Counted from the stretch's first letter, positions 29,928 through 40,766 are shown. The stretch is DNA of 64,000 bases from Patescibacteria group bacterium (GCA_030583805.1 CP129476.1:1094657-1158656); one strand, 5' to 3'. Notes: a model not told the origin generated them from the sequence alone. Translations and numbers: made by a program.

Positions 29928-31190
29928 ATGCCCACCATTCGCGAAATTACAGGACGGGAAATTCTCGACTCGCGCGGCAACCCGACGGTCGAGGCGAAGA
30001 TCACGCTCTCGGACGGTACCGTCGCCAAGGCGTCGGTGCCTTCGGGCGCTTCGACGGGCGTACATGAGGCGCATGAGCTGCGCGACGGCGACAAGCGCCG
30101 CTACGGGGGTTTGGGCGTCTTGAAGGCGGTCAAGAACATCGACGGCCCGATCGCCGACGCGCTGCGCGGCATGGAAGTGCAGGAACAGCGCAAGATCGAC
30201 GCGCGCATGTGCGACTTGGACGGCACGCCGAACAAGTCGAAGCTGGGCGCGAACGCCATCCTCGGCGTCTCGCTGGCCGCCGCGCGGGCCGGAGCGACGT
30301 CCCTCCAGCTCCCGCTCTACCGCTATCTGCGCGACGTTTTCGACCTGCCGCGCGAAGACGGATACAAGATGCCGCTGCCGATGATGAACGTCTTGAACGG
30401 CGGCGCGCACGCCGATTGGAGCATCGATTTCCAGGAGTGCATCATTATTCCGAAGCAGAAAAAATTCCGGGAACGCGTCCGCTGCGGCTCGGAAATTTTC
30501 CACGCGCTGCGCGGCATCCTGAAGGCCAAGAAGTTTTCAGTCGGCGTCGGTGATGAAGGCGGCTTCGCGCCGAAACTCAAGAAGAACGCCCAGGCTTTCG
30601 AATTGATCGCGCTCGCGGTGCGCAAGGCTCGTTACAAGCTCGGCACGGACGTCGGATTCGGCATGGATCCGGCGACCTCCGAGTTCTATGACGCGAAGAA
30701 GAAGAAATACATCCTGGCCACCGACGGCCGCAAGCTGGACGCCGACGGCATGGTCAAGATGTGGGCGTCGTACGTGAAGAAATGGCCGTTCGTCTCGATC
30801 GAAGACGGCATGGCCGAAGACGATTGGAGCGGCTGGAAGCAATTGACCGACGCGCTCGGAAAGAAGATCGCGCTGGTCGGCGACGATTTCTTCGTCACGA
30901 ACGCCGACCGGCTCCGTATGGGCATCGAGCGCGGCGCGGCCAACGCGATCCTGATCAAGGTGAACCAGATCGGCACGCTTTCGGAGACGATCGACGCGAT
31001 CCGCCTCGCGCAGCGCAGCGACTACAAAGTCGCCGTTTCGCACCGTTCCGGAGAAACGGCCGACACGATGATCGCCGACTTGGCGGTCGCGGTGAACGCC
31101 GAATTCATCAAAACTGGATCCCTCTCGAGGAGCGAGCGCCTCGAGAAATACAACCGCTTGATGGAAATCGAGGATGAAGTCGGAGCCTAA
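29928..31190 (+). CDS. eno: Enolase.
   Basis: Full-length enolase: SRGNPTVEA...; SGETED-like motif SGETAD. Confidence 0.95.
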   Translation: MPTIREITGREILDSRGNPTVEAKITLSDGTVAKASVPSGASTGVHEAHELRDGDKRRYGGLGVLKAVKNIDGPIADALRGMEVQEQRKIDARMCDLDGTPNKSKLGANAILGVSLAAARAGATSLQLPLYRYLRDVFDLPREDGYKMPLPMMNVLNGGAHADWSIDFQECIIIPKQKKFRERVRCGSEIFHALRGILKAKKFSVGVGDEGGFAPKLKKNAQAFELIALAVRKARYKLGTDVGFGMDPATSEFYDAKKKKYILATDGRKLDADGMVKMWASYVKKWPFVSIEDGMAEDDWSGWKQLTDALGKKIALVGDDFFVTNADRLRMGIERGAANAILIKVNQIGTLSETIDAIRLAQRSDYKVAVSHRSGETADTMIADLAVAVNAEFIKTGSLSRSERLEKYNRLMEIEDEVGA

Positions 31191-32748
31191 AAAAGCGATT
31201 CGTCCGGTCGTTCTCGTGATTTGCGACGGCTTCGGTTCGGCTCCCGCCGGGCTGCAAGGTAACGCCGTCCTGATGGCGCGCCTGCCGAACCTTTCCGCGC
31301 TATGGGAAAAGTATCCCCGCACGGAATTGTTTGCGCATGGCCAGCACGTCGGGTTGCCGAAGCATCAGCCGGGCAATTCCGAGGCTGGGCACATGAATCT
31401 CGGCGCCGGCCGCGTCGTGAAACAGGACGCCGTCTACATCACCGAAGCGATCGAGGACGGCGTTTTCTTCAAGAACACGGCGTTTCTTGAAGCGTTCAAG
31501 CACGTCAGGAAATACAAGACGCGCGTGCACCTCATGGGCCTCATTTCGGCCGGCAAGTCGGCGCACGCCTCGATGGATCATCTTTACGCGCTCTTGGAGT
31601 TGTGCCGGCGCCAGAAAATCGACGACGTGGCGTTGCATCTTTTTACCGACGGACGCGACAGCCCGCGCTTTGCCGCTACGGCGCAGGTGCATGAGATCGA
31701 GGCGCGACTCCGACCGGGCGAGCGCATCGCCACGATCATGGGGCGTTTCTATCCGATGGACCGCAATCGGAATTGGAAACGCGTCGATTTGGCGTACCAC
31801 GCCATCGTGAACGGCGAAGGGCTTGCGGCAGCGAGCGCCGAAGAAGCCTTGCTCGGCGCCTATAACCGCGGCGAGACCGACGAATTCGTGCTGCCGACCG
31901 TCATCGTCGACAAGGAGCACGTGCCGCACGGCACGGTGCGCGACAACGACGCGATCTTCTTTTTCAATCTCCGCTCCGACCGCGCGCGCCAGCTCACCAA
32001 ATCCTTCTTGCTCGACGATTTCGAAAAGAGCGTGCCGGACGCCTTTAAGCGCCGCCGCGTGCCGAAGAAAACGCGCTTCGTCGCCATGACGGACTTCGGT
32101 CCGGACCTGCCGTACATCCTCACGGCTTATCCCAGCCGGGAATTGCACCGCACGCTGCCGGAGGTGCTCAAGAACCTGAAGCAGTTCTACGTCGCCGAGT
32201 CGGAAAAATTTTCGCACATCACGTTTTTCTTCAACGGCGGCTATCCCGACCACAAGTTCGGCGAGGAGCGCCTGCGCATCGAGTCGCTGCGCATTCCGCG
32301 CCACGACATGCGACCGGAGATGAAATCGATGGAAGTCACGACGGAAGTGCTGAAGCGCTTGCGCTCCGGCAAATACCACTTCATCGCCCTGAACTTCGCC
32401 AACGCCGACATGATCGGTCACACCGGCAACCTGGAAGCGGCGGTCGGCGCGCTCGAGGTGATCGACGACTGCATCGGGCGCCTTTGGAAAGAAGTCGAGG
32501 CAAGGGACGGAACGCTGTTCGTGACCGGCGACCATGGCAACGTCGAATCCATGATCGACGTCGCGACGGGCGCGATCGTCACCGAGCACTCCGCCAACCC
32601 GGTGCCGTTCGTGGTTGCGAGCAAGGCGTTGAAAGGCGCGCGCGAGCTGCCGCGCGGCGTACTGGCCGACGTCGCCCCGACGATCCTGGACGTCATGGGC
32701 ATCCGCCCGCCGGACGAGATGAGCGGACGCTCTTTGCTGGCCGATTGA
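31174..32748 (+). CDS. gpmI: 2,3-bisphosphoglycerate-independent phosphoglycerate mutase, copy 1.
   Basis: iPGM motifs VVLVICDGFG and GNSEAGHMNLGAGR, plus the C-terminal metal-binding domain. It overlaps the eno 3' end by 17 nt. Confidence 0.9.
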   Translation: MKSEPKKAIRPVVLVICDGFGSAPAGLQGNAVLMARLPNLSALWEKYPRTELFAHGQHVGLPKHQPGNSEAGHMNLGAGRVVKQDAVYITEAIEDGVFFKNTAFLEAFKHVRKYKTRVHLMGLISAGKSAHASMDHLYALLELCRRQKIDDVALHLFTDGRDSPRFAATAQVHEIEARLRPGERIATIMGRFYPMDRNRNWKRVDLAYHAIVNGEGLAAASAEEALLGAYNRGETDEFVLPTVIVDKEHVPHGTVRDNDAIFFFNLRSDRARQLTKSFLLDDFEKSVPDAFKRRRVPKKTRFVAMTDFGPDLPYILTAYPSRELHRTLPEVLKNLKQFYVAESEKFSHITFFFNGGYPDHKFGEERLRIESLRIPRHDMRPEMKSMEVTTEVLKRLRSGKYHFIALNFANADMIGHTGNLEAAVGALEVIDDCIGRLWKEVEARDGTLFVTGDHGNVESMIDVATGAIVTEHSANPVPFVVASKALKGARELPRGVLADVAPTILDVMGIRPPDEMSGRSLLAD

Positions 32749-32770: not shown

Positions 32771-34348
32771 ATGCCTACACCGAAACCCGTCGTACTCCTG
32801 ATTCTCGATGGCTGGGGCGTCGCCCCGCCCGACCAGGGAAATGCGCTCGCCATCGCCAAGACCCCCAACATCCGCGCGCTGGCCTCGAAATATCCGGCCA
32901 TGACGCTCCAGTCCTCCGGCGAAGAAGTCGGGCTCATGTGGGGCGAGATGGGCAATTCGGAAGTCGGCCACCTGACGATCGGCGCCGGCAAGGTCTACTA
33001 CCAGAGCCTGCCGCGCATCAACCGTGCCGTCCAAGGCGGCGAATTTGCGACGAACATGGCGTTCGTCAAAGCGGTCGAGCACGTGAAGAAGAACGGAACG
33101 AAATTGCACTTGCTCGGCCTCGCCTCGATCGGCAACGTGCACGCTTCGCTCGAGCACCTGCTCGCGCTGCTTGATTTCGCCAAGGCCAACGACGTCAAGG
33201 AAACGTACGTGCACGCCGTGCTCGACGGGCGCGACACCACGTTCAACGCCGGCATTGACTTCATCACCACGGTGACGGAGCGCATGAAGAAGAACGGCGT
33301 CGGCAAGATCGCCACGCTCTCCGGACGCTTTTACGCCATGGACCGCGACAATCGCTGGGATCGCATCGAGAAGGCATATCGCGCCATGGTCGAAGGCAAG
33401 GCCGACGCGACGAGCGACGACCCGCTCGCGGCCATCCGCGCTTCCTACGAAGCCAAAGTCTACGACGAGGAATTCGTTCCGACGGTGATTACCGAGAACG
33501 GCGCGCCTGTCGCCACGATCGGCGCCGGCGACGCCGTGATCGTCTTCAATTACCGCCCCGACCGCTCGCGCGAAATCACGAGGGCGCTGGCGCTGCCGGA
33601 TTTCGACAAGTTCGCGCGCCCGCAAGTCAGCGATCTTCTCGTCATTACGATGACAGAATACGAAAAAGGTTTCCCGGTCGAAGTCGCCTTTCCGCCCGAG
33701 CCGATTTCGACGTGCCTGGCCAAAGTCATTTCCGACGCCGGCATGAAGCAGCTGCATATCGCCGAGACGGAAAAATACGCGCACGTCACCTTCTTCTTGA
33801 ACGGCATGAAGGAAGATCCTTTCCGCGGCGAGGACCGCGTCATCATTCCGTCGCCGCAGGTTTCCTCGTACGACCAGCAGCCCGAAATGTCGGCGCCGCT
33901 CATCACCGAGCGCATCGTCAAGGAAATCAACGCCGGAAAATACGATCTGATCGCCGCCAACTACGCCAACGGTGACATGGTCGGCCACACCGGCAATCTG
34001 GACGCGACCGTCAAAGCGGCAGAAGTCGTCGACGCCTCGATCGGCAAGATCGTCGAAGCGGCGCTCGAAAAAGGCGGCGTCGTGCTCATCACCGCCGACC
34101 ACGGCAACGCCGAAGAGGTCGTCAATTTGCAGACCGGATCGATCGACAAGGAACACTCCACCTATCCCGTGCCTTTCTTGATCATCGGCCAGCAGTTCGA
34201 AGGCATGGCCGGCGAAGCGCAAGAAATGGTCGGCGGCGACCTGAGCCTCAGCCCGCCGGTCGGCATGCTCTCCGACGTCACCCCGACAATTCTCCGCATC
34301 ATGGGCATTCCGCAGCCGAGCGACATGACGGGGAGGCCGTTGATTTGA
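32771..34348 (+). CDS. gpmI: 2,3-bisphosphoglycerate-independent phosphoglycerate mutase, copy 2; a diverged tandem paralogue.
   Basis: iPGM motifs VVLLILDGWG and GNSEVGHLTIGAGK. It is clearly homologous to, but distinct from, copy 1. Confidence 0.9.
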   Translation: MPTPKPVVLLILDGWGVAPPDQGNALAIAKTPNIRALASKYPAMTLQSSGEEVGLMWGEMGNSEVGHLTIGAGKVYYQSLPRINRAVQGGEFATNMAFVKAVEHVKKNGTKLHLLGLASIGNVHASLEHLLALLDFAKANDVKETYVHAVLDGRDTTFNAGIDFITTVTERMKKNGVGKIATLSGRFYAMDRDNRWDRIEKAYRAMVEGKADATSDDPLAAIRASYEAKVYDEEFVPTVITENGAPVATIGAGDAVIVFNYRPDRSREITRALALPDFDKFARPQVSDLLVITMTEYEKGFPVEVAFPPEPISTCLAKVISDAGMKQLHIAETEKYAHVTFFLNGMKEDPFRGEDRVIIPSPQVSSYDQQPEMSAPLITERIVKEINAGKYDLIAANYANGDMVGHTGNLDATVKAAEVVDASIGKIVEAALEKGGVVLITADHGNAEEVVNLQTGSIDKEHSTYPVPFLIIGQQFEGMAGEAQEMVGGDLSLSPPVGMLSDVTPTILRIMGIPQPSDMTGRPLI

Positions 34349-34409
34349 AGCATTAACCCGAGCATGGTGATGAGGAATTCGGCGCCGCGATGGCCAAGTT
34401 GTAACAAGC

Positions 34410-34434
34410 AAAACTCCCCGAAAGGGGAGTTTTG
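34410..34434 (+). terminator. Intrinsic terminator after the glycolytic operon (aaaactcccc-gaaa-ggggagtttt).
   Basis: Perfect hairpin plus a T-run. Confidence 0.65.
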
Positions 34435-34469
34435 ATCTATACTGCAACCATCATTCACTGAATACGACT

Positions 34470-34796
34470 ATGGGCGATGCAAAAAAGTTTTTGGGTAAGG
34501 GCGTTGCACTCGCGACGCTGATCGGTGCGGCGGTGGCGCTCGCGCACGCGGTGAAAAAGAACAAGAAGGCGAAGCTGCTCAAGACTGCGGCAGAAGACGC
34601 GAAGGGGCATGTGCTCTCGCATGCCAAGAAGCTCGGGGGCGTCTCCAAGGCGTCGTACGGAAAAATCGTCGATTCCGTGCTGGCCGAGTACGCCAACATG
34701 AAGACCTTTTCGAAAAAGGAGATTGCCGAGATGGCGCACGAGCTGAAAGACGGCTGGCGGGAAGTCGGAAAGATGTTGAAGGGTAAGAAGCGTTAG
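34470..34796 (+). CDS. Hypothetical Lys-rich small protein, 108 aa.
   Basis: ORF in the track; a TATACT -10 lies at 34438. Its own terminator is at 34805-34830. Confidence 0.5.
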   Translation: MGDAKKFLGKGVALATLIGAAVALAHAVKKNKKAKLLKTAAEDAKGHVLSHAKKLGGVSKASYGKIVDSVLAEYANMKTFSKKEIAEMAHELKDGWREVGKMLKGKKR

Positions 34797-34804
34797 AGGC
34801 AACA

Positions 34805-34830
34805 GACCGGGCTTCGGCCCGGTTTTTGTG
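34805..34830 (+). terminator. Intrinsic terminator (gaccgggc-ttcg-gcccggt + TTTTT).
   Basis: Visible in the sequence. Confidence 0.65.
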
Positions 34831-34867
34831 TTGACAAACGCCGTTTTTACGGACAGAATGGATCGTT

Positions 34868-36028
34868 ATGTCCCAGAACTTCACGCTTACGCATCAGGAC
34901 AAGTACTCGCGCGCACGCGCGGGGGTTTTGCATACCGAGCACGGCGACGTGGAGACGCCTGTTTTCATGCCGGTCGGCACGCAGGCGACCGTGAAGGCGC
35001 TCGACGCGGCCGACATGGAAATGCTCGGCGCGCAGATCATCCTGAACAATACCTATCACTTGCACTTACGGCCGGGGGAGGACATCGTCAAAAACCTCGG
35101 CGGCGCGCATGCGTTCCAGCATTGGAACCGCGCGATTTTGACCGACTCGGGCGGCTACCAGGTGTTTTCGCTCGGCGCGAAGAAAGCGGCGACGGGAAAT
35201 TTGGTAAAGATCGACGAAGACGGCGTGACCTTCAAGTCACATCTCGACGGTTCGAGCCACCGCTTCACGCCGGAAGAGGCAATCAGGATCCAGCAGAAAC
35301 TTGGCGCCGACGTCATCATGGCGTTCGATCAGTGCACGTCGGACAGCGCCTCGGAGGAAGAAGCGCGTACGGCGATGGAGCGCACGCACCGCTGGGCGGA
35401 CCGCTGTCTTGCGGCCTTTGCCGACAAGAAGGATGCGCCGACGTTCAAACAGCAGCTCTTCGGCATCGTCCAGGGCGGCGTGCACAAGGACTTGCGCCGC
35501 GCTTCGGCGGAGTTCATCGCGTCGCGCCCGTTCGACGGTTTCGCGATCGGCGGCGAGTCGGTCGGCTACAACATGGAAAAGACGCGCGAGATTCTCGGTT
35601 GGATCGAAGACCTCATGCCCGCAGACAAAGCGCGCTATACGATGGGTGTCGGGCTTTCGCCGGAGGATCTCTTTGATGTCGTCGAGGGCGGCGCCGACAT
35701 GTTCGACTGCGTTTCACCGACCCGCGTGGCGCGCAACGGCGCCTTGTTCAACCGCAAGGCCGGACGCTCGAAAAAATACCGCATCGAAATCGGCAACAAG
35801 GCGCACGAGCAGGACACGCGCCTGATCGACGAAGAATGCGGCTGCTTCACGTGCAAAAACTATTCGCGCGCCTATCTTCGCCATCTCTTCCTCGCCGAAG
35901 AGCTCGCGTATTTCCGTCTCGGTACGATCCATAACCTGCACTTCCTCCTCAATCTGATGCGCGAAATGCGCAAAGCGATTTTGGAAGACCGCTTCCTGGA
36001 GTTCAAGAAAAGCTGGATCGTCGAATAA
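34868..36028 (+). CDS. tgt: Queuine tRNA-ribosyltransferase.
   Basis: Full-length Tgt: TPVFMPVGTQATVK, DSGGYQVFSL, and the zinc site CGCFTC...H. Confidence 0.95.
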   Translation: MSQNFTLTHQDKYSRARAGVLHTEHGDVETPVFMPVGTQATVKALDAADMEMLGAQIILNNTYHLHLRPGEDIVKNLGGAHAFQHWNRAILTDSGGYQVFSLGAKKAATGNLVKIDEDGVTFKSHLDGSSHRFTPEEAIRIQQKLGADVIMAFDQCTSDSASEEEARTAMERTHRWADRCLAAFADKKDAPTFKQQLFGIVQGGVHKDLRRASAEFIASRPFDGFAIGGESVGYNMEKTREILGWIEDLMPADKARYTMGVGLSPEDLFDVVEGGADMFDCVSPTRVARNGALFNRKAGRSKKYRIEIGNKAHEQDTRLIDEECGCFTCKNYSRAYLRHLFLAEELAYFRLGTIHNLHFLLNLMREMRKAILEDRFLEFKKSWIVE

Positions 36029-36066
36029 AAATCCCCGCAGCCGCAGCTGCCGGGAGAGAAAAACGT

Positions 36067-36582
36067 TCAGTTTTTTTCGCGCTCTTCAAGAGTGCTCGCA
36101 TGCATCTGCTCCGCGGCGGCGCGGGCCGTCGCTTTGACGAGCAGAATCGCGCGCTCGCGATCCACGTCCGAGTGGCGGTAGAGCAGATAGCTGTACCTGC
36201 CGAACCGGTCCTGCGCCGCAACGAAGGCGGCGGCGACATGCGGCGGATGGGAAACGCTGAGCTCGCCTTTTTCCTCGACGGTGATCTTGATTTCCAGGCT
36301 CTCGATCTTTTCAGCCATGGTCACGATCAGGTCGTCCTCGCCGGCGGCGACTTCGAACCGCTTGAAAAGAAAGCTCGGCGCGCGGCCTTCCATCATGCAG
36401 GCGTAGACGCCAGCGAGCACGTGGTCCTCTGACGAGGCTGCCGCCGGTTCTCCCTCGAGCACCTCGGCGACCAGATCGCCGCTGTGGATCTCGTACACCA
36501 GGCTGAGCAGCTTCGAGTCCCGCCCCGCGGGCATGAGGGTTTTGGCGTAGTGGTACACGTCCGCGCCGTCCATCTTTTTCAT
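36067..36582 (-). CDS. Hypothetical acidic protein, 171 aa (cassette member d).
   Basis: ATG at 36582 with SD gggaggaag. No recognisable domain. Confidence 0.55.
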   Translation of the reverse strand: MKKMDGADVYHYAKTLMPAGRDSKLLSLVYEIHSGDLVAEVLEGEPAAASSEDHVLAGVYACMMEGRAPSFLFKRFEVAAGEDDLIVTMAEKIESLEIKITVEEKGELSVSHPPHVAAAFVAAQDRFGRYSYLLYRHSDVDRERAILLVKATARAAAEQMHASTLEEREKN

Positions 36583-36636
36583 ACTTCCTCCCGGAAAGAC
36601 GCATGCTCACTCCATCAGGGAACGCCGCAGCCGTCA

Positions 36637-36661
36637 AATAAAAAACCATCCGTACGGATGG
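36637..36661 (-). terminator. Intrinsic terminator ending the queA operon (ccatccgtacggatgg + T-run on the minus strand).
   Basis: The hairpin sits immediately after the stop of ORF 36662-37153. Confidence 0.6.
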
Positions 36662-37153
36662 TTAGGAATCGACGGCGATCGCGCCTTTCAGGGCGGCAAA
36701 GATCGTCGCTTCGTCGAACATCGGCAGGTAGAAGAGCATCACGGCCGGACGTTCCGACCGCGCGCGCGACATGGTGATCGCGGCGACGATCTCCCGCCCG
36801 GTGTGCGCGAGCGTCGACAGCGCTTCCGCTGGATACGCGCTTGAGCCCGGCAGCGTGTGCGCAAGGTACGTTTGCAGCGCGTCGCTTGCGGACGCGACGT
36901 CTTCCGGGTTCTCGCCGTGAATGTATGTCGCCATCGTGCCGCCGTGTTCGTACGCCATGACGACGAGCGCGTCGTGCTCCAAGATTTCTTCGAGCGATTC
37001 GACGTTTCCAAAGAGCGGCCGATAGGCGAGGAAGCCGTTTACCAGGTCGTCAAGAAAGTCGAGATAGATCCAGAGCGACGACGACGCGTCGGCGCCTTCA
37101 GCCATCTCGTACATGTGCGCCTTGATGGCTTCGAGTCCGGTCTTGGTCTCCAT
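36662..37153 (-). CDS. Hypothetical acidic protein, 163 aa (cassette member a).
   Basis: TGATG overlap with the upstream gene. No recognisable domain. Confidence 0.55.
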   Translation of the reverse strand: METKTGLEAIKAHMYEMAEGADASSSLWIYLDFLDDLVNGFLAYRPLFGNVESLEEILEHDALVVMAYEHGGTMATYIHGENPEDVASASDALQTYLAHTLPGSSAYPAEALSTLAHTGREIVAAITMSRARSERPAVMLFYLPMFDEATIFAALKGAIAVDS

Positions 37154-37671
37154 CAGCTGCCGCCTTTCGCGGCTTCATCTTCTTGCTCGCGGATGAACTG
37201 CACGAGCAGCTTCAGATGGCCGACCGCCTGCGCAAAGGTCTGATCCCGTTGCCAGGCGATGCCGATGCGCCGCGTGCCGTCGTCGAGCGTGCTGCAGTAG
37301 GCGAAGACGAGCGTCGTCAATGGTTCGGGGACGGCAGCCAGCGCTTCGTCCGCCGTGGCGGACCTTTCCGGCCGGGCCGCCAGGGCGTCGAGCAGCACGT
37401 CGCGGATGCGCAGCTCCTCGGTCGTATTCGCGGCCGGATAGATGAAGTACCTAAGCCGGCCGTCCGCCGTGGTGCCGAGCGTGAGCAGGCAGTCGAAGAC
37501 TTGCCGCTCCGCTTCTTCCGCGCCTTCGAGCGTGCGGTGGTCGAGCTCGTCGCTTTCCAGGTCGGAAAGCGCCTTGAGCAGCGTCCGTCCGCCATGGTTC
37601 ATGGGCAACTGCGTCTCCCATTCCTCCATCGCTTCGGAGACGGTCTTCAGGTCGTCATCGTCTTTCGTCAT
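37153..37671 (-). CDS. Hypothetical acidic protein, 172 aa (cassette member b).
   Basis: ATG at 37671 (MTKDDDDLKTV...). The longer track ORF is an R/S-rich spurious extension. Only 1 nt separates it from the upstream stop. Confidence 0.55.
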   Translation of the reverse strand: MTKDDDDLKTVSEAMEEWETQLPMNHGGRTLLKALSDLESDELDHRTLEGAEEAERQVFDCLLTLGTTADGRLRYFIYPAANTTEELRIRDVLLDALAARPERSATADEALAAVPEPLTTLVFAYCSTLDDGTRRIGIAWQRDQTFAQAVGHLKLLVQFIREQEDEAAKGGS

Positions 37672-37672
37672 C

Positions 37673-38146
37673 TCACGACTCCGATCCGGTGCGGACGATT
37701 CCGCGTCCGAGCATGGTGACGAGCCAGCTTTTGGCTTCCGTCTCCGTGAAGCTGGGGTGGTGGAACAGCGCGAGGAACGCCTCGCCGTTTGCGTTCTCTC
37801 CCCACATGGCCAGGAGCAGCGTATCGGGCTCTTCGAGCATGGCGCGCAAAAGCGAGTCGCGCTCCGGGACTTCGGCGGCACTGTCGCCGAGAAGTTTCCT
37901 GAGCGCCATGAAGCGCGCTTCGTCAGGAATGTTTCCGGCGTCGACGCAGAAGTCGCCGTAGAGCGTACCGTCGATTTTCGCGGCGGCCCAGACGTCGCAA
38001 AACGTCGGCTTCACGACCGGCCAACGGCCGTACGCTTGCGCGAGCAGCAGCTTGCCGTCGGCCAGGTCCGTCGCCGAAACCTGGAACAGCCGCTCGCGCG
38101 CCTCCGAGGAGGGAAAGACGTGTTCTGGCGGTTTCGAAATGGACAT
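37673..38146 (-). CDS. Hypothetical acidic protein, 157 aa (cassette member c).
   Basis: SD caaaggagg before ATG 38146. It lies directly downstream of queA. Confidence 0.55.
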   Translation of the reverse strand: MSISKPPEHVFPSSEARERLFQVSATDLADGKLLLAQAYGRWPVVKPTFCDVWAAAKIDGTLYGDFCVDAGNIPDEARFMALRKLLGDSAAEVPERDSLLRAMLEEPDTLLLAMWGENANGEAFLALFHHPSFTETEAKSWLVTMLGRGIVRTGSES

Positions 38147-38212
38147 GGCGCCTCCTTTGTAAGGGCCATGTCCATTTGAGCATTACGGGGCGGCACGGTC
38201 AATCCTGAAACC

Positions 38213-39238
38213 TCAGACGATCAGCATGGCGTCGCCGTAACTATAGAAGCGGTATTTTTTCTTCACGGCCTCGCGGTACGTTTTGAGCATGCGATCGCGA
38301 CCGGCCAAAGTTGAAACGAGCACGAGCAGCGTTGATTTCGGAAGGTGAAAATTCGTCATCAGGGCGTCGACGACGCGGAACTTGAAACCGGGACGGATGA
38401 AAATATTCACGTCGCCGTGCCAGGCGCAAAGTTCGCCGCCGCATTGCGCAACGGCGCCTTCAAGCGCGCGGACCGTGGTCGTACCGACGGCGATCACGCG
38501 GCGCTTCTCGACTTTTGCCTTCAAGATTTCCTTGACGGTTTTTTCTGGGATCTCAACCCACTCGGCGTGCATCTGATGCGCATCGATCTCATCGGCGCGG
38601 ATCGGTAGGAAGGTGCCGAGTCCGACATGCAGCGTGACTTCCAAAAACGTCACGCCTTTCTTTTTCAGCTTCGCGATCAAGGCCTTGGTGAGATGGAATC
38701 CGGCTGTCGGCGCGGCGACGGAACCGACGCTTTTGGCGTACGCGGTCTGGTATTCGGACGCGCGCGGTTTGCGCGTGATGTAGGGCGGCAGGGGAATCTC
38801 GCCGTTTTTGTCGGCCAGCTTGATGACCGCGTCTTTCTTCATGCCGAAATCGACGAGGATCGAGCCGTCCGCGTCTTTCCATTCGACGGTCGCCACGAAT
38901 CCGCGCGCGATCGTGATTTTCGATCCGTGCGAAAGTTTACGGCCCGGTTTCGCGAGCGCGCGCCAGAATTTGCCCTCAGGGCGCACCAAGAAAATTTCAA
39001 CGGCGGTTTTCTTCGTGTCATTCAGCGTCCCGCCCAGCCGCGCCTTAAAGACCTTGCTGACGTTCACGACGAGCACGTCGCCCTTCTTCAAAAAGTCAGG
39101 GAGATCCTTCACGCGCTTGTGCGAGAGGGTGTCGCTTTTCCGATCCAATACCAAAAGGCGGGCCGACTCGCGCGGCGAGGCCGGTTTCTGGGCAATCAGC
39201 GTTTCTGGGAGGTGATAGTCAAAATCAGATGTGCGCAT
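38213..39238 (-). CDS. queA: S-adenosylmethionine:tRNA ribosyltransferase-isomerase.
   Basis: Full-length QueA: DFDYHLPETLIAQKP... Confidence 0.9.
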   Translation of the reverse strand: MRTSDFDYHLPETLIAQKPASPRESARLLVLDRKSDTLSHKRVKDLPDFLKKGDVLVVNVSKVFKARLGGTLNDTKKTAVEIFLVRPEGKFWRALAKPGRKLSHGSKITIARGFVATVEWKDADGSILVDFGMKKDAVIKLADKNGEIPLPPYITRKPRASEYQTAYAKSVGSVAAPTAGFHLTKALIAKLKKKGVTFLEVTLHVGLGTFLPIRADEIDAHQMHAEWVEIPEKTVKEILKAKVEKRRVIAVGTTTVRALEGAVAQCGGELCAWHGDVNIFIRPGFKFRVVDALMTNFHLPKSTLLVLVSTLAGRDRMLKTYREAVKKKYRFYSYGDAMLIV

Positions 39239-39263
39239 ACGGCGTCCATTGTAGCACGGGCGG

Positions 39264-39292
39264 TTGACACGCTCCCTTTTTTCGACTAGGGT
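39264..39292 (+). promoter_or_regulatory. Promoter (TTGACA, 17 nt, TAGGGT) for the gene at 39322, in the queA-divergent intergenic region.
   Basis: Consensus -35 with 17-nt spacing. Confidence 0.45.
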
Positions 39293-39321
39293 TCCGACGT
39301 TCCAATCACGGAGGAGGAATC

Positions 39322-39876
39322 GTGAACTTCTTTCATCTCGATGACGATGAGTCCCCGCAAGTGCCTGCCGAGCGCGTCACTCTCGAGGGCATCACGGTCA
39401 CTCGACCGATCGCGTGCTACGGCCTGCACGTATCGATCGACACGGAGAACGACTGGGCCTGTCTGGCGCACGTGTTGATCACGTTCGATGACGAGCAGGA
39501 TCCGGACACGCTCGCCGTGTCGCTGCCGGACTGCCTCTCGCCGCTGCTCTTCAAGGACTGGGCGATCGCCGTCACCTTTCTGCTCGCCGAGGGTGTCGAG
39601 ACGCTCGAGCGGGCGATGGGTCGCCATCTTTCAAATGGCGTTCGCATCGACTTCGAGGCTCTGGGTGAGGAAGTGCGCATGACCGTCACGTTCGATGATG
39701 GGCGCGAACAGGTCGCCCGATTGCCGTTCGAACACTTCGGCGGCGCCTTCATCGAGTACGATGACACGGAAGACCTTCTCGAAGAAGCGGCGTGCGTCGA
39801 CGAGCGCACATCTGTCGAGAAGCCGATGGTCAAGACGGCTCCTCCCGGGAACGCCTCCGAATACGATCCGTCCTGA
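39322..39876 (+). CDS. Hypothetical acidic protein, 184 aa (cassette member e), with a GTG start.
   Basis: SD ggaggagg before GTG 39322. No recognisable domain. Confidence 0.55.
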   Translation: MNFFHLDDDESPQVPAERVTLEGITVTRPIACYGLHVSIDTENDWACLAHVLITFDDEQDPDTLAVSLPDCLSPLLFKDWAIAVTFLLAEGVETLERAMGRHLSNGVRIDFEALGEEVRMTVTFDDGREQVARLPFEHFGGAFIEYDDTEDLLEEAACVDERTSVEKPMVKTAPPGNASEYDPS

Positions 39877-39920
39877 CGCCCCTTTCTCCGGGGCGTCTTT
39901 TCTTTTACACTGGCCACGCT

Positions 39921-40766
39921 ATGCCCGAACTCCCCGAAGTCGAAACCCTGCGCCGTCAGATGGAAAAAGCGCTCGTCGGACGCTCCGTGAAGAGCGTGGA
40001 CGTGCGTTTCGGTCGGAAAATTTTTCCGTCGGCCGCCGCGCTCGTGCGGGCCGCTTCCGGCGCGAAGTTCAAGGCCTTCGGCCGCCGCGCGAAGCTCCTG
40101 CTCGCGCACCTTTCGAACGGCTGGACGATCGTCACGCATTTAAAAATGACCGGTTCGTATCTTTTAAAGAAAGAAAGGGAGACGCCGACCAAGCATACGC
40201 ACGTCGTGTTTCATCTCGATAAGAAGGAGCAGCTTTGGTTCGAAGACGTGCGCAAGTTCGGGTTCTTGAAACTCGTGAAAACCGCCGATCTCGAAAAAGT
40301 TCTCTTCGAGAAAGAAGGGTACGGACCGGAACCGCTCGATCCGTCGTTCACGTTCAAGAGGTTCAAGATGTGCGTGACGGCGCGCCCACACAAGAAAATC
40401 AAACCGCTCTTGCTCGACCAAGGCTGCATTGCGGGCATTGGCAACATTTATGCCGACGAAGCGTGCTGGTACGCGAAGGTGCATCCCGAACGCACGGTCG
40501 GCTCGCTTTCGGAAAAGGAATTGAAGGGCGTGTATGACGGCGCCGTGAAAGCTTTGTGCGCCTCCGTGAAGCGCCTTGGTTCCTCGTCCGACAACTATCG
40601 CGACCTCTACGGCGAGAAAGGCGGCAACGTGCCGCATCTTTGGGTTTACAACCGCGAAGGGAAGCCGTGCCGGCGTTGCGGCGCGTCGCTCAAGAAAATG
40701 TGGGTCGCAAGCCGCGGCGCGCACTATTGCCCCGTATGCCAGAAGCCGCCGCGATCCGCAAAGTGA
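39921..40766 (+). CDS. mutM: Formamidopyrimidine-DNA glycosylase (Fpg/MutM).
   Basis: N-terminal PELPEVE catalytic motif; H2TH; C-terminal CxxC-x-CxxC zinc finger. ATG at 39921. Confidence 0.9.
   Translation: MPELPEVETLRRQMEKALVGRSVKSVDVRFGRKIFPSAAALVRAASGAKFKAFGRRAKLLLAHLSNGWTIVTHLKMTGSYLLKKERETPTKHTHVVFHLDKKEQLWFEDVRKFGFLKLVKTADLEKVLFEKEGYGPEPLDPSFTFKRFKMCVTARPHKKIKPLLLDQGCIAGIGNIYADEACWYAKVHPERTVGSLSEKELKGVYDGAVKALCASVKRLGSSSDNYRDLYGEKGGNVPHLWVYNREGKPCRRCGASLKKMWVASRGAHYCPVCQKPPRSAK

What the first reader, a model, noticed from the sequence alone, without database searches (positions are those of the whole stretch)
36067..39876. tgt and queA split by a cassette of small, unrelated, acidic hypothetical proteins
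tgt and queA are usually adjacent and co-oriented. Here queA heads a tightly coupled minus-strand operon, queA-(157 aa)-(172 aa)-(163 aa), with junctions 1-nt and TGATG-spaced, ending at an intrinsic terminator. A fourth acidic gene (171 aa) follows with its own strong SD. A fifth (184 aa, GTG start, consensus promoter) diverges from queA. None has a recognisable domain, and the five do not resemble one another. Tandem arrays of small, dissimilar acidic proteins are typical of orphan immunity-protein islands from polymorphic-toxin or CDI loci. These could instead be uncharacterised queuosine-pathway accessory factors, given the co-transcription with queA.
Basis: inference. Interest (0 to 1): 0.55.

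Follow-up and report, generated by a model that had tools for sequence, protein, structure and literature searches.

The report
Fast-evolving paralog array between queA and tgt
Four of the five small acidic genes wedged between two tRNA-modification genes of this ultra-small (Patescibacteria) bacterium are diverged copies of one previously undescribed protein family. That family is found only at this spot in a narrow clade and evolves unusually fast, much as arrays of toxin-immunity genes do, but its function is untested.

Summary
The ORFs are real.

A (36067-36582), B (36662-37153), C (37153-37671) and D (37673-38146) are distant paralogs of one family (profile-profile probabilities 62-97%, reversed controls below 9%). 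AlphaFold predicts the fold confidently (pLDDT 88.6) as alpha-alpha-beta3-alpha-beta2-alpha. It has no significant match in PDB, BFVD, Pfam, NCBIfam, PADLOC or PHROGs.

An exhaustive HMMER scan of 1.84 billion representatives found 24 members. Every member whose context could be read lies between queA and tgt, in lineages down to 57% QueA identity.

Arrays hold three to five or more copies. They show loss, a possible pseudogene, a two-domain fusion, allele replacement and mosaic phylogenies. dN/dS is 0.13-0.47, against 0.03-0.07 for Tgt and QueA.

The array has its own conserved promoter-like motifs, so co-transcription with queA is not required. E (39322-39876) is an unrelated orphan in a hypervariable slot.

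My best reading is a homogeneous "polyimmunity-like" array of non-catalytic binding proteins (about 0.35). No toxin, no Imm/SUKH homology and no mobile element was found. A queuosine role is unlikely but not excluded.

The parts
34868..36028 (+). tgt (queuine tRNA-ribosyltransferase). It is the convergent right-hand boundary of the array in every lineage.
   Evidence: Pfam TGT 6.6e-143. It is 90-96% identical among close lineages and 74-85% identical in the distant ones.
36037..36050 (-). Terminator-like hairpin (GCAGCTGCGGCTGC followed by GGGGATTTTT) in the 38-nt spacer between the convergent genes A and tgt.
   Evidence: Consensus scan. Function is inferred.
36067..36582 (-). A: a 171-aa family member of the A-type subfamily, forming its own transcription unit.
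   Evidence: ORF. Orthologues are 26-88% identical. The AlphaFold2 model has pLDDT 88.6 and pTM 0.84, with topology a-a-b3-a-b2-a. hhalign A-B 97%, A-C 94.7%, A-F 98.4%.
36609..36637 (-). Promoter-like motif TTGACG-N14-TGA-TGGAGT upstream of A.
   Evidence: Conserved nearly base for base in W, L001, L081, L083, L087 and L090, while the flanking spacer varies. Function is inferred.
36644..36663 (-). Intrinsic-terminator-like hairpin (AACCATCC-GTAC-GGATGGTT followed by TTTTTATTT) ending the D-C-B unit.
   Evidence: The stem is conserved and the loop varies in five other lineages.
36662..37153 (-). B: a 163-aa family member (B-type). It overlaps the stop codon of C by 1 nt (TGATG).
   Evidence: Orthologues are 46-79% identical. 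hhalign B-A 97%, B-D 82.8%. It carries a TAA stop in place of a Tyr codon in L088/L089.
37153..37671 (-). C: a 172-aa family member (C-type), starting 1 nt after the stop codon of D.
   Evidence: In L001 and L088 this slot holds a different allele or subfamily (C2) that is only about 20% identical. hhalign C-C2 98.1%, C-A 94.7%.
37673..38146 (-). D: a 157-aa family member (D-type), the first gene after queA.
   Evidence: hhalign D-B 82.8%, D-C2 89.6%, D-A 62%. The C-terminal tail GRGxxRxGxES is invariant in 8 orthologues.
38174..38202 (-). Promoter-like motif TTGACC-N14-TGC-TCAAAT (extended -10 type) in the 66-nt queA-D spacer.
   Evidence: Conserved in W, L001, L081, L083, L088 and L090, and partly in L092 and L096. 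It is the only match in the window to TTGAC-N15-TGNTNNAAT, with 0.01 expected by chance. It resembles queA's own TGCTACAAT. Function is inferred.
38213..39238 (-). queA (S-adenosylmethionine:tRNA ribosyltransferase-isomerase). It is the upstream boundary of the array in every lineage.
   Evidence: Pfam Queuosine_synth 6.8e-126. It is 86-94% identical in close lineages and 57-65% identical in distant ones.
39322..39876 (+). E: a 184-aa acidic orphan that is not a member of the family. It occupies a hypervariable slot between queA and fpg.
   Evidence: Coding-type GC1/2/3 of 0.68/0.39/0.78. Its only match in 5.8 billion proteins is itself. Proteins in the same slot in relatives are 14-20% identical to it, with no profile match. 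hhalign to the family gives probability 0.2%.
39875..39897 (+). Terminator-like hairpin after E (GACGCCCC-TTTCTCC-GGGGCGTC followed by TTTTCTTTT).

Best explanation
**Shown.**
- A, B, C and D are diverged tandem paralogs of a single, previously undescribed family. A fifth member, F, is present in some relatives.
- Members are about 160 aa, cytoplasmic and acidic, with a predicted alpha-alpha-beta3-alpha-beta2-alpha fold.
- The family is restricted to a narrow Patescibacteria clade. In every case examined it lies only in the interval queA -> array <- tgt.
- It has evolved in place by duplication, loss, fusion, allele replacement and recombination, at 4-10 times the dN/dS of its neighbours.

**Inferred from conserved motifs.** The array is expressed as two units from its own promoters. 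D-C-B is translationally coupled and ends at a terminator. A is expressed alone. Its position beside queA is therefore inherited rather than a sign of a shared pathway.

**Inferred mechanism.** The proteins are non-catalytic binding modules that work like a homogeneous 'polyimmunity' array. Each paralog would sequester or neutralise a different variant of a rapidly changing protein partner, such as a toxin or effector delivered by neighbours or by the host of this episymbiont. That would keep the family under diversifying pressure. E is an unrelated orphan gene in a second hypervariable slot.
For: **One family.**
- Enriched subfamily profiles give hhalign A-B 97% (E 1e-10, 150 columns), A-C 94.7%, A-F 98.4%, C-C2 98.1%, B-D 82.8% and C2-D 89.6%. 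Reversed-target controls are all below 9%.
- The superfamily alignment gives a pLDDT 88.6 model. A shallower 8-sequence alignment of the D subfamily alone, with D rather than A as target, gave only pLDDT 47.

**Restricted to this locus.**
- There are 24 hits at E<=1e-3 among 1.84e9 representatives.
- Members from the ten lineages read (the window plus nine related lineages) all sit between queA and tgt.
- Six-frame HMM searches found no member elsewhere in the 64-kb window or in the fetched flanks.

**Conflict-like dynamics.**
- dN/dS is 0.13-0.47 for A-D and F, against 0.03-0.07 for Tgt and QueA.
- Arrays have 3, 4 or 5 members. F is absent from the window but present in its closest relative, L087.
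- B has a TAA stop in L088. L093 carries a two-domain fusion, comparable to a 'polyimmunity protein'.
- C and C2 are about 20% identical in backgrounds where Tgt is 96% identical. D and A give opposite nearest neighbours, which indicates mosaicism.

**Non-catalytic.** Superfamily-conserved columns are Gly, Pro and hydrophobic residues plus one acidic residue. His137 is present in only 25 of 36 sequences.

**Own promoters and terminator.**

**Match to the published concept.** Polyimmunity loci are described as tandem paralogs in the same orientation with short spacers, usually one locus per genome, variable in number, and sometimes fused into multi-domain proteins (PMC3482391).
Against: - No toxin, Rhs/CDI/LXG fragment, secretion gene, recombinase or mobile element lies next to the array in the window (SIMPL, enolase, two iPGM genes, tgt | queA, fpg, nth, pilin-like, ZIP, PAP2) or in any related locus.
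- There is no sequence or structure similarity to any Imm/SUKH family or solved immunity protein.
- Gene order D-C-B-A, the junction geometry and the regulatory motifs are conserved across lineages. This is less plastic than described polyimmunity loci and would also suit subunits of one complex.
- The family is not spread by horizontal transfer beyond one clade, unlike most immunity families.
- Gene-wide dN/dS is below 1, so relaxed purifying selection alone could explain the rates. No site-level test was possible.
- Only 64 kb of the genome was visible, so toxins elsewhere could not be sought.
Confidence: 0.35

Rival explanations
1. The paralogs are subunits of one lineage-specific hetero-oligomeric complex, structural or regulatory, with no conflict role. 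Translational coupling would deliver D, C and B in fixed stoichiometry. Fast divergence would simply reflect weak constraint on a non-enzymatic scaffold.
For: The D/C 1-nt spacer and the C/B 1-nt overlap are conserved in W, L001, L081, L083, L087, L088 and L090. The same geometries recur in L093 and L096, although the proteins there are under 25% identical. Gene order is conserved, and every lineage keeps at least 3 members. dN/dS is below 1. The weak Foldseek neighbours include dimer-forming Roadblock/MglB/LAMTOR proteins (not significant).
Against: Copy number is not fixed (3-5). F has been lost cleanly from the window. B carries a stop codon in L088. The C slot holds two alleles about 20% identical in near-identical backgrounds, and D, C/B and A alleles are shuffled independently. 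That is awkward for co-adapted interfaces.
Confidence: 0.25
2. The proteins are accessory or regulatory factors of queuosine tRNA modification. They might bind 7-deazaguanine precursors, or chaperone or regulate Tgt and QueA, which would explain why they always sit between the two genes.
For: The linkage queA -> array <- tgt is kept in every lineage examined, down to 57% QueA and 74% Tgt identity. The array has the same orientation as queA, and no terminator was detected between queA and D. The weak fold neighbours include small-ligand-binding GAF/LuxR-type domains (not significant).
Against: A conserved promoter-like motif lies between queA and D, and another lies before A. dN/dS is 4-10 times that of QueA and Tgt. 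Members are lost, pseudogenised or replaced. No polar residue set is conserved apart from one acidic residue. No Que-family homology was found. No preQ1 riboswitch or other Rfam element is present. A Patescibacteria genome with 54% QueA identity lacks the array.
Confidence: 0.12
3. The proteins are secretion-chaperone-like adaptors, or non-classically exported host-interaction factors of an episymbiont.
For: They are small, acidic and lack a signal peptide. The secondary-structure order alpha-beta3-alpha-beta2-alpha matches my recollection of the SCOP 'secretion chaperone-like' fold. Subfamily-specific C-terminal tails are conserved: A- and F-types mostly end in Asn, and D ends in GRGxxRxGxES. 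The T3SS chaperone SigE appeared as a non-significant hit (E 1.1).
Against: No T3SS chaperone appears among the top 50 Foldseek matches. No secretion-system or effector genes are adjacent. The fold resemblance is from memory and was not tested on coordinates.
Confidence: 0.08
4. The ORFs are spurious, or decaying remnants without function.
For: There are no database annotations. E has no homologue at all. dN/dS for the E slot is 0.65-0.85, though substitutions are saturated.
Against: For A-D: GC3 is coding-type. The reading frames are conserved in the ten lineages read (the window plus nine related lineages), with dN/dS of 0.13-0.47. Shine-Dalgarno sequences, promoter-like motifs and a terminator are conserved. 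The fold is predicted confidently. The rival remains possible only for E.
Confidence: 0.03

Closest known systems
Homogeneous polyimmunity loci of polymorphic-toxin systems, e.g. tandem SUKH, Imm6, Imm11, Imm33, Imm36 or Imm41 arrays (Zhang et al. 2012, Biol Direct 7:18, PMC3482391)
   Same: Tandem paralogs of one small alpha+beta family, in the same orientation with very short spacers. One locus per genome as far as could be seen. Copy number differs between relatives. Domains are occasionally fused into one polypeptide. Members are cytoplasmic, lack catalytic motifs and diverge fast.
   Different: No homology or fold match to any known immunity superfamily. No toxin, toxin cassette or recombinase nearby. 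Gene order and regulation are conserved and vertically inherited. The family is confined to one clade and one locus. Extended polyimmunity loci were reported only in Proteobacteria, Bacteroidetes, Firmicutes and Actinobacteria.
The queA-tgt(-yajC-secDF) gene neighbourhood of many bacteria (my knowledge of E. coli and relatives)
   Same: The same two queuosine genes are neighbours.
   Different: Here they are convergent and separated by 2.1 kb holding a paralog array with its own promoter-like motifs. The intervening proteins have no Que-family signature.
Alpha/beta sandwich binding modules: GAF/LuxR-type ligand-binding domains, Roadblock/LC7 (MglB, LAMTOR), profilin
   Same: These were the best, though weak, Foldseek neighbours. 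All have an antiparallel sheet packed by helices and a non-catalytic binding role.
   Different: All matches have E>=0.065, probability <=0.2 and TM<=0.27. The order of secondary-structure elements (a-a-b3-a-b2-a) differs from those folds, so no membership can be claimed.
Type III secretion class I chaperones / 'secretion chaperone-like' fold (recollection of SCOP d.198: alpha-beta(3)-alpha-beta(2)-alpha)
   Same: Size of about 130-170 aa, acidic pI, and the same order of secondary-structure elements as in the AF2 model.
   Different: Not recovered in the Foldseek top 50. The only sequence-level hint is a non-significant SigE hit at E 1.1. There is no T3SS or effector context.

Membership tests
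Polymorphic-toxin immunity families (Imm1-74, SUKH/SMI1_KNR4, SuFu-like) | Sequence homology to a described immunity superfamily | tested here: not met
   Pfam scan of the 5 window proteins and of all 36 aligned family members gave no Imm/SUKH/SMI1 hit at E<=0.1. NCBIfam gave none.
Polymorphic-toxin immunity families (Imm1-74, SUKH/SMI1_KNR4, SuFu-like) | Structural similarity to a solved immunity protein | tested here: not met
   Foldseek of the pLDDT 88.6 model against 350,542 PDB chains gave no match with E<=0.001 and no immunity protein in the top 50. The PDB sequence-profile search gave nothing significant.
Polymorphic-toxin / polyimmunity locus | Genomic association with a toxin gene, toxin C-terminal cassettes, or a recombinase | tested here: not met
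   The window flanks are SIMPL, enolase, two iPGM genes and tgt on one side, and queA, fpg, nth, a pilin-like gene, ZIP, PAP2 and ManC on the other. The 10 related loci show the same picture. The rest of the genome was not available.
Polymorphic-toxin / polyimmunity locus | Tandem, co-oriented, closely spaced functionally equivalent genes whose number and type differ between close relatives | tested here: inconclusive
   The genes are tandem, co-oriented paralogs with -1 to +1 nt junctions. Arrays hold 3-5 members and show F loss, a stop codon in B, C/C2 replacement and a fusion protein. However, the D-C-B-A order is conserved in seven lineages.
Queuosine biosynthesis or salvage proteins | Homology to a known Que, Qng or transporter family | tested here: not met
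   No Pfam or NCBIfam hit.
Queuosine biosynthesis or salvage proteins | Conserved linkage and co-transcription with queA or tgt | tested here: inconclusive
   The linkage is conserved in every lineage. However, conserved promoter-like motifs precede D and A. No transcript data are available.
Queuosine biosynthesis or salvage proteins | Pathway-enzyme-like conservation with invariant catalytic or ligand-binding residues | tested here: not met
   dN/dS is 0.13-0.47, against 0.03-0.07 for QueA and Tgt. The only invariant polar column is one Asp/Glu.
Type III secretion class I chaperone-like fold | alpha-beta3-alpha-beta2-alpha fold confirmed by structural superposition | tested here: inconclusive
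Known anti-phage defence systems | Match to a PADLOC model | tested here: not met
   There were 0 families at E<=1 for A-E, F and the L093 fusion protein. PHROGs also gave nothing.

The most novel reading that the evidence does not exclude
The strict confinement of this family to the queA-tgt interval is functional, not historical. Under this reading the paralogs are a new class of acidic binding proteins tied to Q-family tRNAs. They could be decoys or inhibitors that protect Q34 tRNAs (Tyr, His, Asn, Asp) from diversifying anticodon nucleases of the colicin-E5 type, or modulators that gate Tgt and QueA in an organism that must scavenge its 7-deazaguanine precursor from a host. Diversification would track the variable partner.
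Probability: 0.1. Interest if true: 0.75.

Novelty: new variant of a known kind. Interest (0 to 1): 0.45.

Why it matters
Patescibacteria (CPR) genomes are tiny, yet this clade keeps three to five copies of a fast-diversifying family with no known relatives at one fixed chromosomal address. That suggests a maintained, lineage-specific function.

If the array is immunity-like, it would extend polyimmunity loci to CPR bacteria. It would also add a new immunity fold, and it would point to toxin-mediated conflict as a selective force on episymbionts.

If the array is tied to queuosine, it would reveal an unknown layer of control over a universal tRNA modification.

In either case the work gives a clean family definition, a confident structural model and a set of orthologous loci that make the question testable.

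Tried and rejected
- **Family and defence libraries.** Pfam, NCBIfam, PADLOC and PHROGs scans of A-E, F, the fusion protein and all 36 aligned members gave nothing.
- **PDB sequence-profile searches.** Searches with the superfamily, B and D profiles gave nothing significant.
- **First AlphaFold2 run.** The run on D with 8 orthologues was unusable (pLDDT 47). I did not run Foldseek on it.
- **Foldseek on the good A model.** Searches against PDB and BFVD gave no significant match. The SUKH/Imm, T3SS-chaperone, Roadblock and GAF ideas could therefore not be upheld.
- **Metagenome-contig scans.** Scans with the D and B profiles found no relatives. The superfamily alignment was too diverse to seed a scan.
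- **Rfam.** Neither gathering thresholds on the whole window nor E<=1 on 34300-40100 found a preQ1 riboswitch or any other RNA at the locus.
- **Homology of E.** Comparisons of E to the family and to E-slot proteins of relatives gave none.
- **Literature.** A search for Patescibacteria plus queuosine found nothing relevant.
- **'Spurious ORF' reading.** Rejected for A-D on GC3, conservation and dN/dS.

Full report
**What is in the sequence**

The window comes from a Patescibacteria (CPR) metagenome-assembled genome. The exact D protein is annotated as 'hypothetical protein QY323_06040 [Patescibacteria group bacterium]' on a 1,167,441-bp contig.

The gene map around the finding is as follows:
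- iPGM at 31174-32748 and 32771-34348, both on the plus strand
- a basic 108-aa ORF at 34470-34796 (+)
- tgt at 34868-36028 (+)
- on the minus strand: A 36067-36582, B 36662-37153, C 37153-37671, D 37673-38146, and queA 38213-39238
- on the plus strand again: E 39322-39876, fpg, nth, a pilin-like CarboxypepD_reg protein, ZIP and PAP2

D and C are separated by a 1-nt spacer. C and B share a TGATG overlap. A hairpin with a T-run follows B. A and E have strong Shine-Dalgarno sequences, and E starts with GTG. All five proteins are acidic, with pI 4.1-5.3. All have the GC1/GC2/GC3 pattern of the neighbouring housekeeping genes, with GC3 at 0.78-0.83. None hits Pfam, NCBIfam, PADLOC or PHROGs.

**Are they real genes?**

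Yes, for A-D. The closest species-level genome hit for QueA (L001, 87% identity) carries the same arrangement, queA-D-C-B-A followed by a convergent tgt. Look-ups of exact homologues recovered more contigs with the same layout: L081/L082 (a 646-kb contig), L083-L086, L087, L088/L089 and L090/L091.

Nei-Gojobori dN/dS values are as follows:

| Gene | dN/dS |
|---|---|
| A | 0.13-0.47 |
| B | 0.20-0.34 |
| C | 0.19-0.40 |
| D | 0.18-0.45 |
| F | 0.27 |
| Tgt | 0.03-0.04 |
| QueA | 0.04-0.07 |

The C range excludes comparisons across the C/C2 allele types. So A-D are under purifying selection, but they evolve 4-10 times faster than their neighbours at the protein level. Amino-acid identities between lineages are 90-96% for Tgt and 86-94% for QueA. 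For the array they are D 47-90%, C 17-72%, B 46-79% and A 26-88%.

**They are paralogs, not unrelated proteins**

By eye, all four share two features. One is a mid-protein hairpin with a Gly turn. The other is a C-terminal 'strand, Gly turn, strand, (H)P, helix' unit.

Small four-lineage profiles already linked C to D (hhalign 84%, E 7.5e-6) and A to C and D. I then enriched the subfamily profiles with remote members. The links became A-B 97% (E 1e-10 over 150 columns), A-C 94.7%, A-F 98.4%, C-C2 98.1%, B-D 82.8%, C2-D 89.6% and A-D 62%. Reversed-sequence controls never exceeded 8.4%.

AlphaFold2 on D with eight orthologues failed (pLDDT 47). Folding A with the 36-sequence superfamily alignment gave pLDDT 88.6 and pTM 0.84. 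The elements are H6-16, H21-34, E38-43, E55-65, E68-75, H85-95, E116-124, E130-136 and H142-170. The target and alignment depth differ between the two runs, so the contrast is only suggestive of a shared fold.

E is not a member. hhalign gives probability 0.2%, and no HMM hit was found.

**How far the family reaches, and where it lives**

A mixed profile was searched exhaustively against 1.84 billion representative proteins. It found only 24 proteins at E<=1e-3, all 90-186 aa long. I looked up the genomic context of the most divergent ones. All lie between queA and tgt:
- P0028 (L092): queA, 186 aa, 199 aa, 166 aa, tgt
- P0031 (L093): 85 aa (cut at the contig end), 178, 179, 332, tgt
- P0029 (L096/L097): queA, 144, 165, 168, tgt
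- P0036 (L095): 125 aa (cut at the contig end), 173, tgt

All the intervening proteins match the family HMM. In these lineages QueA is only 57-65% identical to the window's QueA, and Tgt is 74-85% identical.

Six-frame HMM searches found no other member in the 64-kb window or in the fetched flanks. A Patescibacteria genome with 54% QueA identity (L002) has none. The family therefore appears confined to one clade and one chromosomal address.

**Dynamics of the array**

- **Copy number.** It is 3 in L092 and L096, 4 in the window, L001, L081 and L083, and 5 in L087, L088 and L090.
- **Member F.** The extra member F lies between A and tgt. It is present in L087, the window's closest relative by D and A (87-88% identity). 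It is cleanly absent from the window, where only 38 nt separate A from tgt.
- **Possible pseudogene.** In L088/L089, B carries a TAA stop where relatives have a Tyr codon. The two assemblies may derive from the same sample, so this may be either a real pseudogene or an error.
- **Fusion.** L093 g3 (332 aa) contains two family domains.
- **Allele replacement.** The C slot holds two allele types about 20% identical. C2 occurs in L001 and L088, yet L088 is 96% (Tgt), 94% (QueA) and 87% (D) identical to the window.
- **Mosaic phylogeny.** D places the window nearer L081 (69%) than L090 (51%). A places it nearer L090 (80%) than L081 (42%). dS values shift in the same way. The array is therefore a recombining mosaic.

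**Regulation**

The 66-nt queA-D spacer contains TTGACC-N14-TGC-TCAAAT at 38174-38202. This motif is conserved across lineages while the surrounding bases vary. It resembles queA's own TGCTACAAT box.

After B there is a conserved hairpin terminator at 36644-36663, with a conserved stem and a variable loop. It is followed by a conserved TTGACG...TGATGGAGT motif at 36609-36637 in front of A.

I infer three transcription units: queA, D-C-B and A. No terminator follows queA, so read-through from queA is possible but not required. The D/C and C/B junction geometries are conserved in all close lineages and recur in L093 and L096. This suggests selected translational coupling.

**What the proteins are likely to do**

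The superfamily-conserved columns are glycines, a proline, hydrophobic core positions and one invariant Asp/Glu. The His of the 'HP' motif is present in only 25 of 36 sequences. This is the signature of a scaffold or binding module, not an enzyme. There are no signal peptides or hydrophobic segments (sequences; GRAVY values).

Foldseek found no significant neighbour in PDB. The best match had E 0.065 and TM<=0.27. The weak neighbours were GAF/LuxR ligand-binding domains, Roadblock/MglB/LAMTOR and profilin. BFVD gave no significant neighbour either. PDB sequence-profile searches were empty.

The order of elements matches my recollection of the 'secretion chaperone-like' fold. That could not be tested on coordinates.

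**Weighing the readings**

The pattern has these parts: tandem co-oriented paralogs of a non-catalytic family, one locus per genome, variable copy number, a multi-domain fusion and rapid mosaic divergence. This matches the published description of homogeneous polyimmunity loci point for point (PMC3482391). That is why I rank an immunity-like, partner-neutralising role first, at about 0.35.

The decisive features are missing, however:
- no toxin or toxin cassette
- no recombinase
- no homology to any immunity superfamily
- no sign of horizontal spread
- a conserved gene order

A hetero-oligomeric, lineage-specific complex (about 0.25) would explain the conserved order and the translational coupling. 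It sits poorly with allele shuffling and gene loss.

A queuosine-linked role (about 0.12) rests only on the conserved address. It is weakened by the array's own promoter-like motifs, the fast evolution, the gene loss, the absence of conserved ligand or catalytic residues and the absence of any riboswitch.

E is a separate matter. It is a coding-looking orphan with its own terminator, in a slot where relatives carry unrelated 149-163-aa proteins or, in L092, an 88-aa gene.

**Verdict**

The locus is a new, clade-restricted, rapidly diversifying paralog family with a confidently predicted fold that has no significant match in the libraries searched. It behaves like a polyimmunity array, but it fails the membership tests that could be run.

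This is of moderate interest. It is a well-defined unknown rather than a demonstrated new mechanism.

Noticed in passing
window 39322-39876 (+), and the same slot in L081 4363-4830, L083 4372-4824, L090 2888-3337, L096 5282-5773 and L092 387-653: The slot between queA and fpg/nth is a second hypervariable position. The window's E has no homologue except itself among 5.8 billion proteins. Relatives carry 149-163-aa proteins that are 26-45% identical to each other but only 14-20% identical to E. L092 has an 88-aa gene in the other orientation.
   Followed up: partly
window 34797-34867, compared with L081 9304-10632, L083 9284-11396, L088 5332-6491 and L001 4115-5596: The space between tgt and the conserved 108-aa gene or iPGM is a variable insertion point in relatives. 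L081 carries a PIF1-type helicase there, and L083 carries the helicase plus a methyltransferase. L088 carries an ORF6N-domain protein plus two small ORFs. L001 carries a 493-aa Cys-rich protein. The window has nothing there.
   Followed up: no
window 31174-32748 and 32771-34348 (+), downstream of enolase at 29928-31190: There are two tandem paralogs of cofactor-independent phosphoglycerate mutase (iPGM_N plus Metalloenzyme domains). L088 and L097 have the same pair. This is an unusual duplication for a genome of about 1.2 Mb.
   Followed up: partly
window 39239-39270 (-), with L081, L083, L090 and L096 equivalents: queA is preceded by a conserved TGCTACAAT box (extended -10 type) that ends only 9 nt before the ATG, with no Shine-Dalgarno sequence. 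This suggests a leaderless or near-leaderless queA mRNA.
   Followed up: no
L001 (CAYFZV010000064.1): The record is titled 'uncultured Gammaproteobacteria bacterium'. However, the contig has 87% QueA and 92% Tgt identity to this Patescibacteria window and the same array synteny. The contig is probably mis-binned or mislabelled.
   Followed up: no
window 36067-36072 and 37673-37705; P0026-P0036, F of L087/L088/L090: Subfamily-specific C-terminal tails are conserved despite overall divergence. A- and F-type proteins mostly end in Asn (KN, PN, SN, VN). D-type proteins end in an invariant GRGxxRxGxES. These could be docking or recognition motifs.
   Followed up: no
window 34470-34796 (+): This is a conserved 108-aa, very basic (pI 10.1) protein with no Pfam family. 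It lies next to tgt in most lineages and is 68% identical in L095.
   Followed up: no
L088 2426-2917 / L089 302-793: The B orthologue is split by a TAA stop at the codon that is Tyr in relatives. The rest of the frame is intact. This may be a recent pseudogene or an assembly or sample-specific variant. The two assemblies may not be independent.
   Followed up: partly
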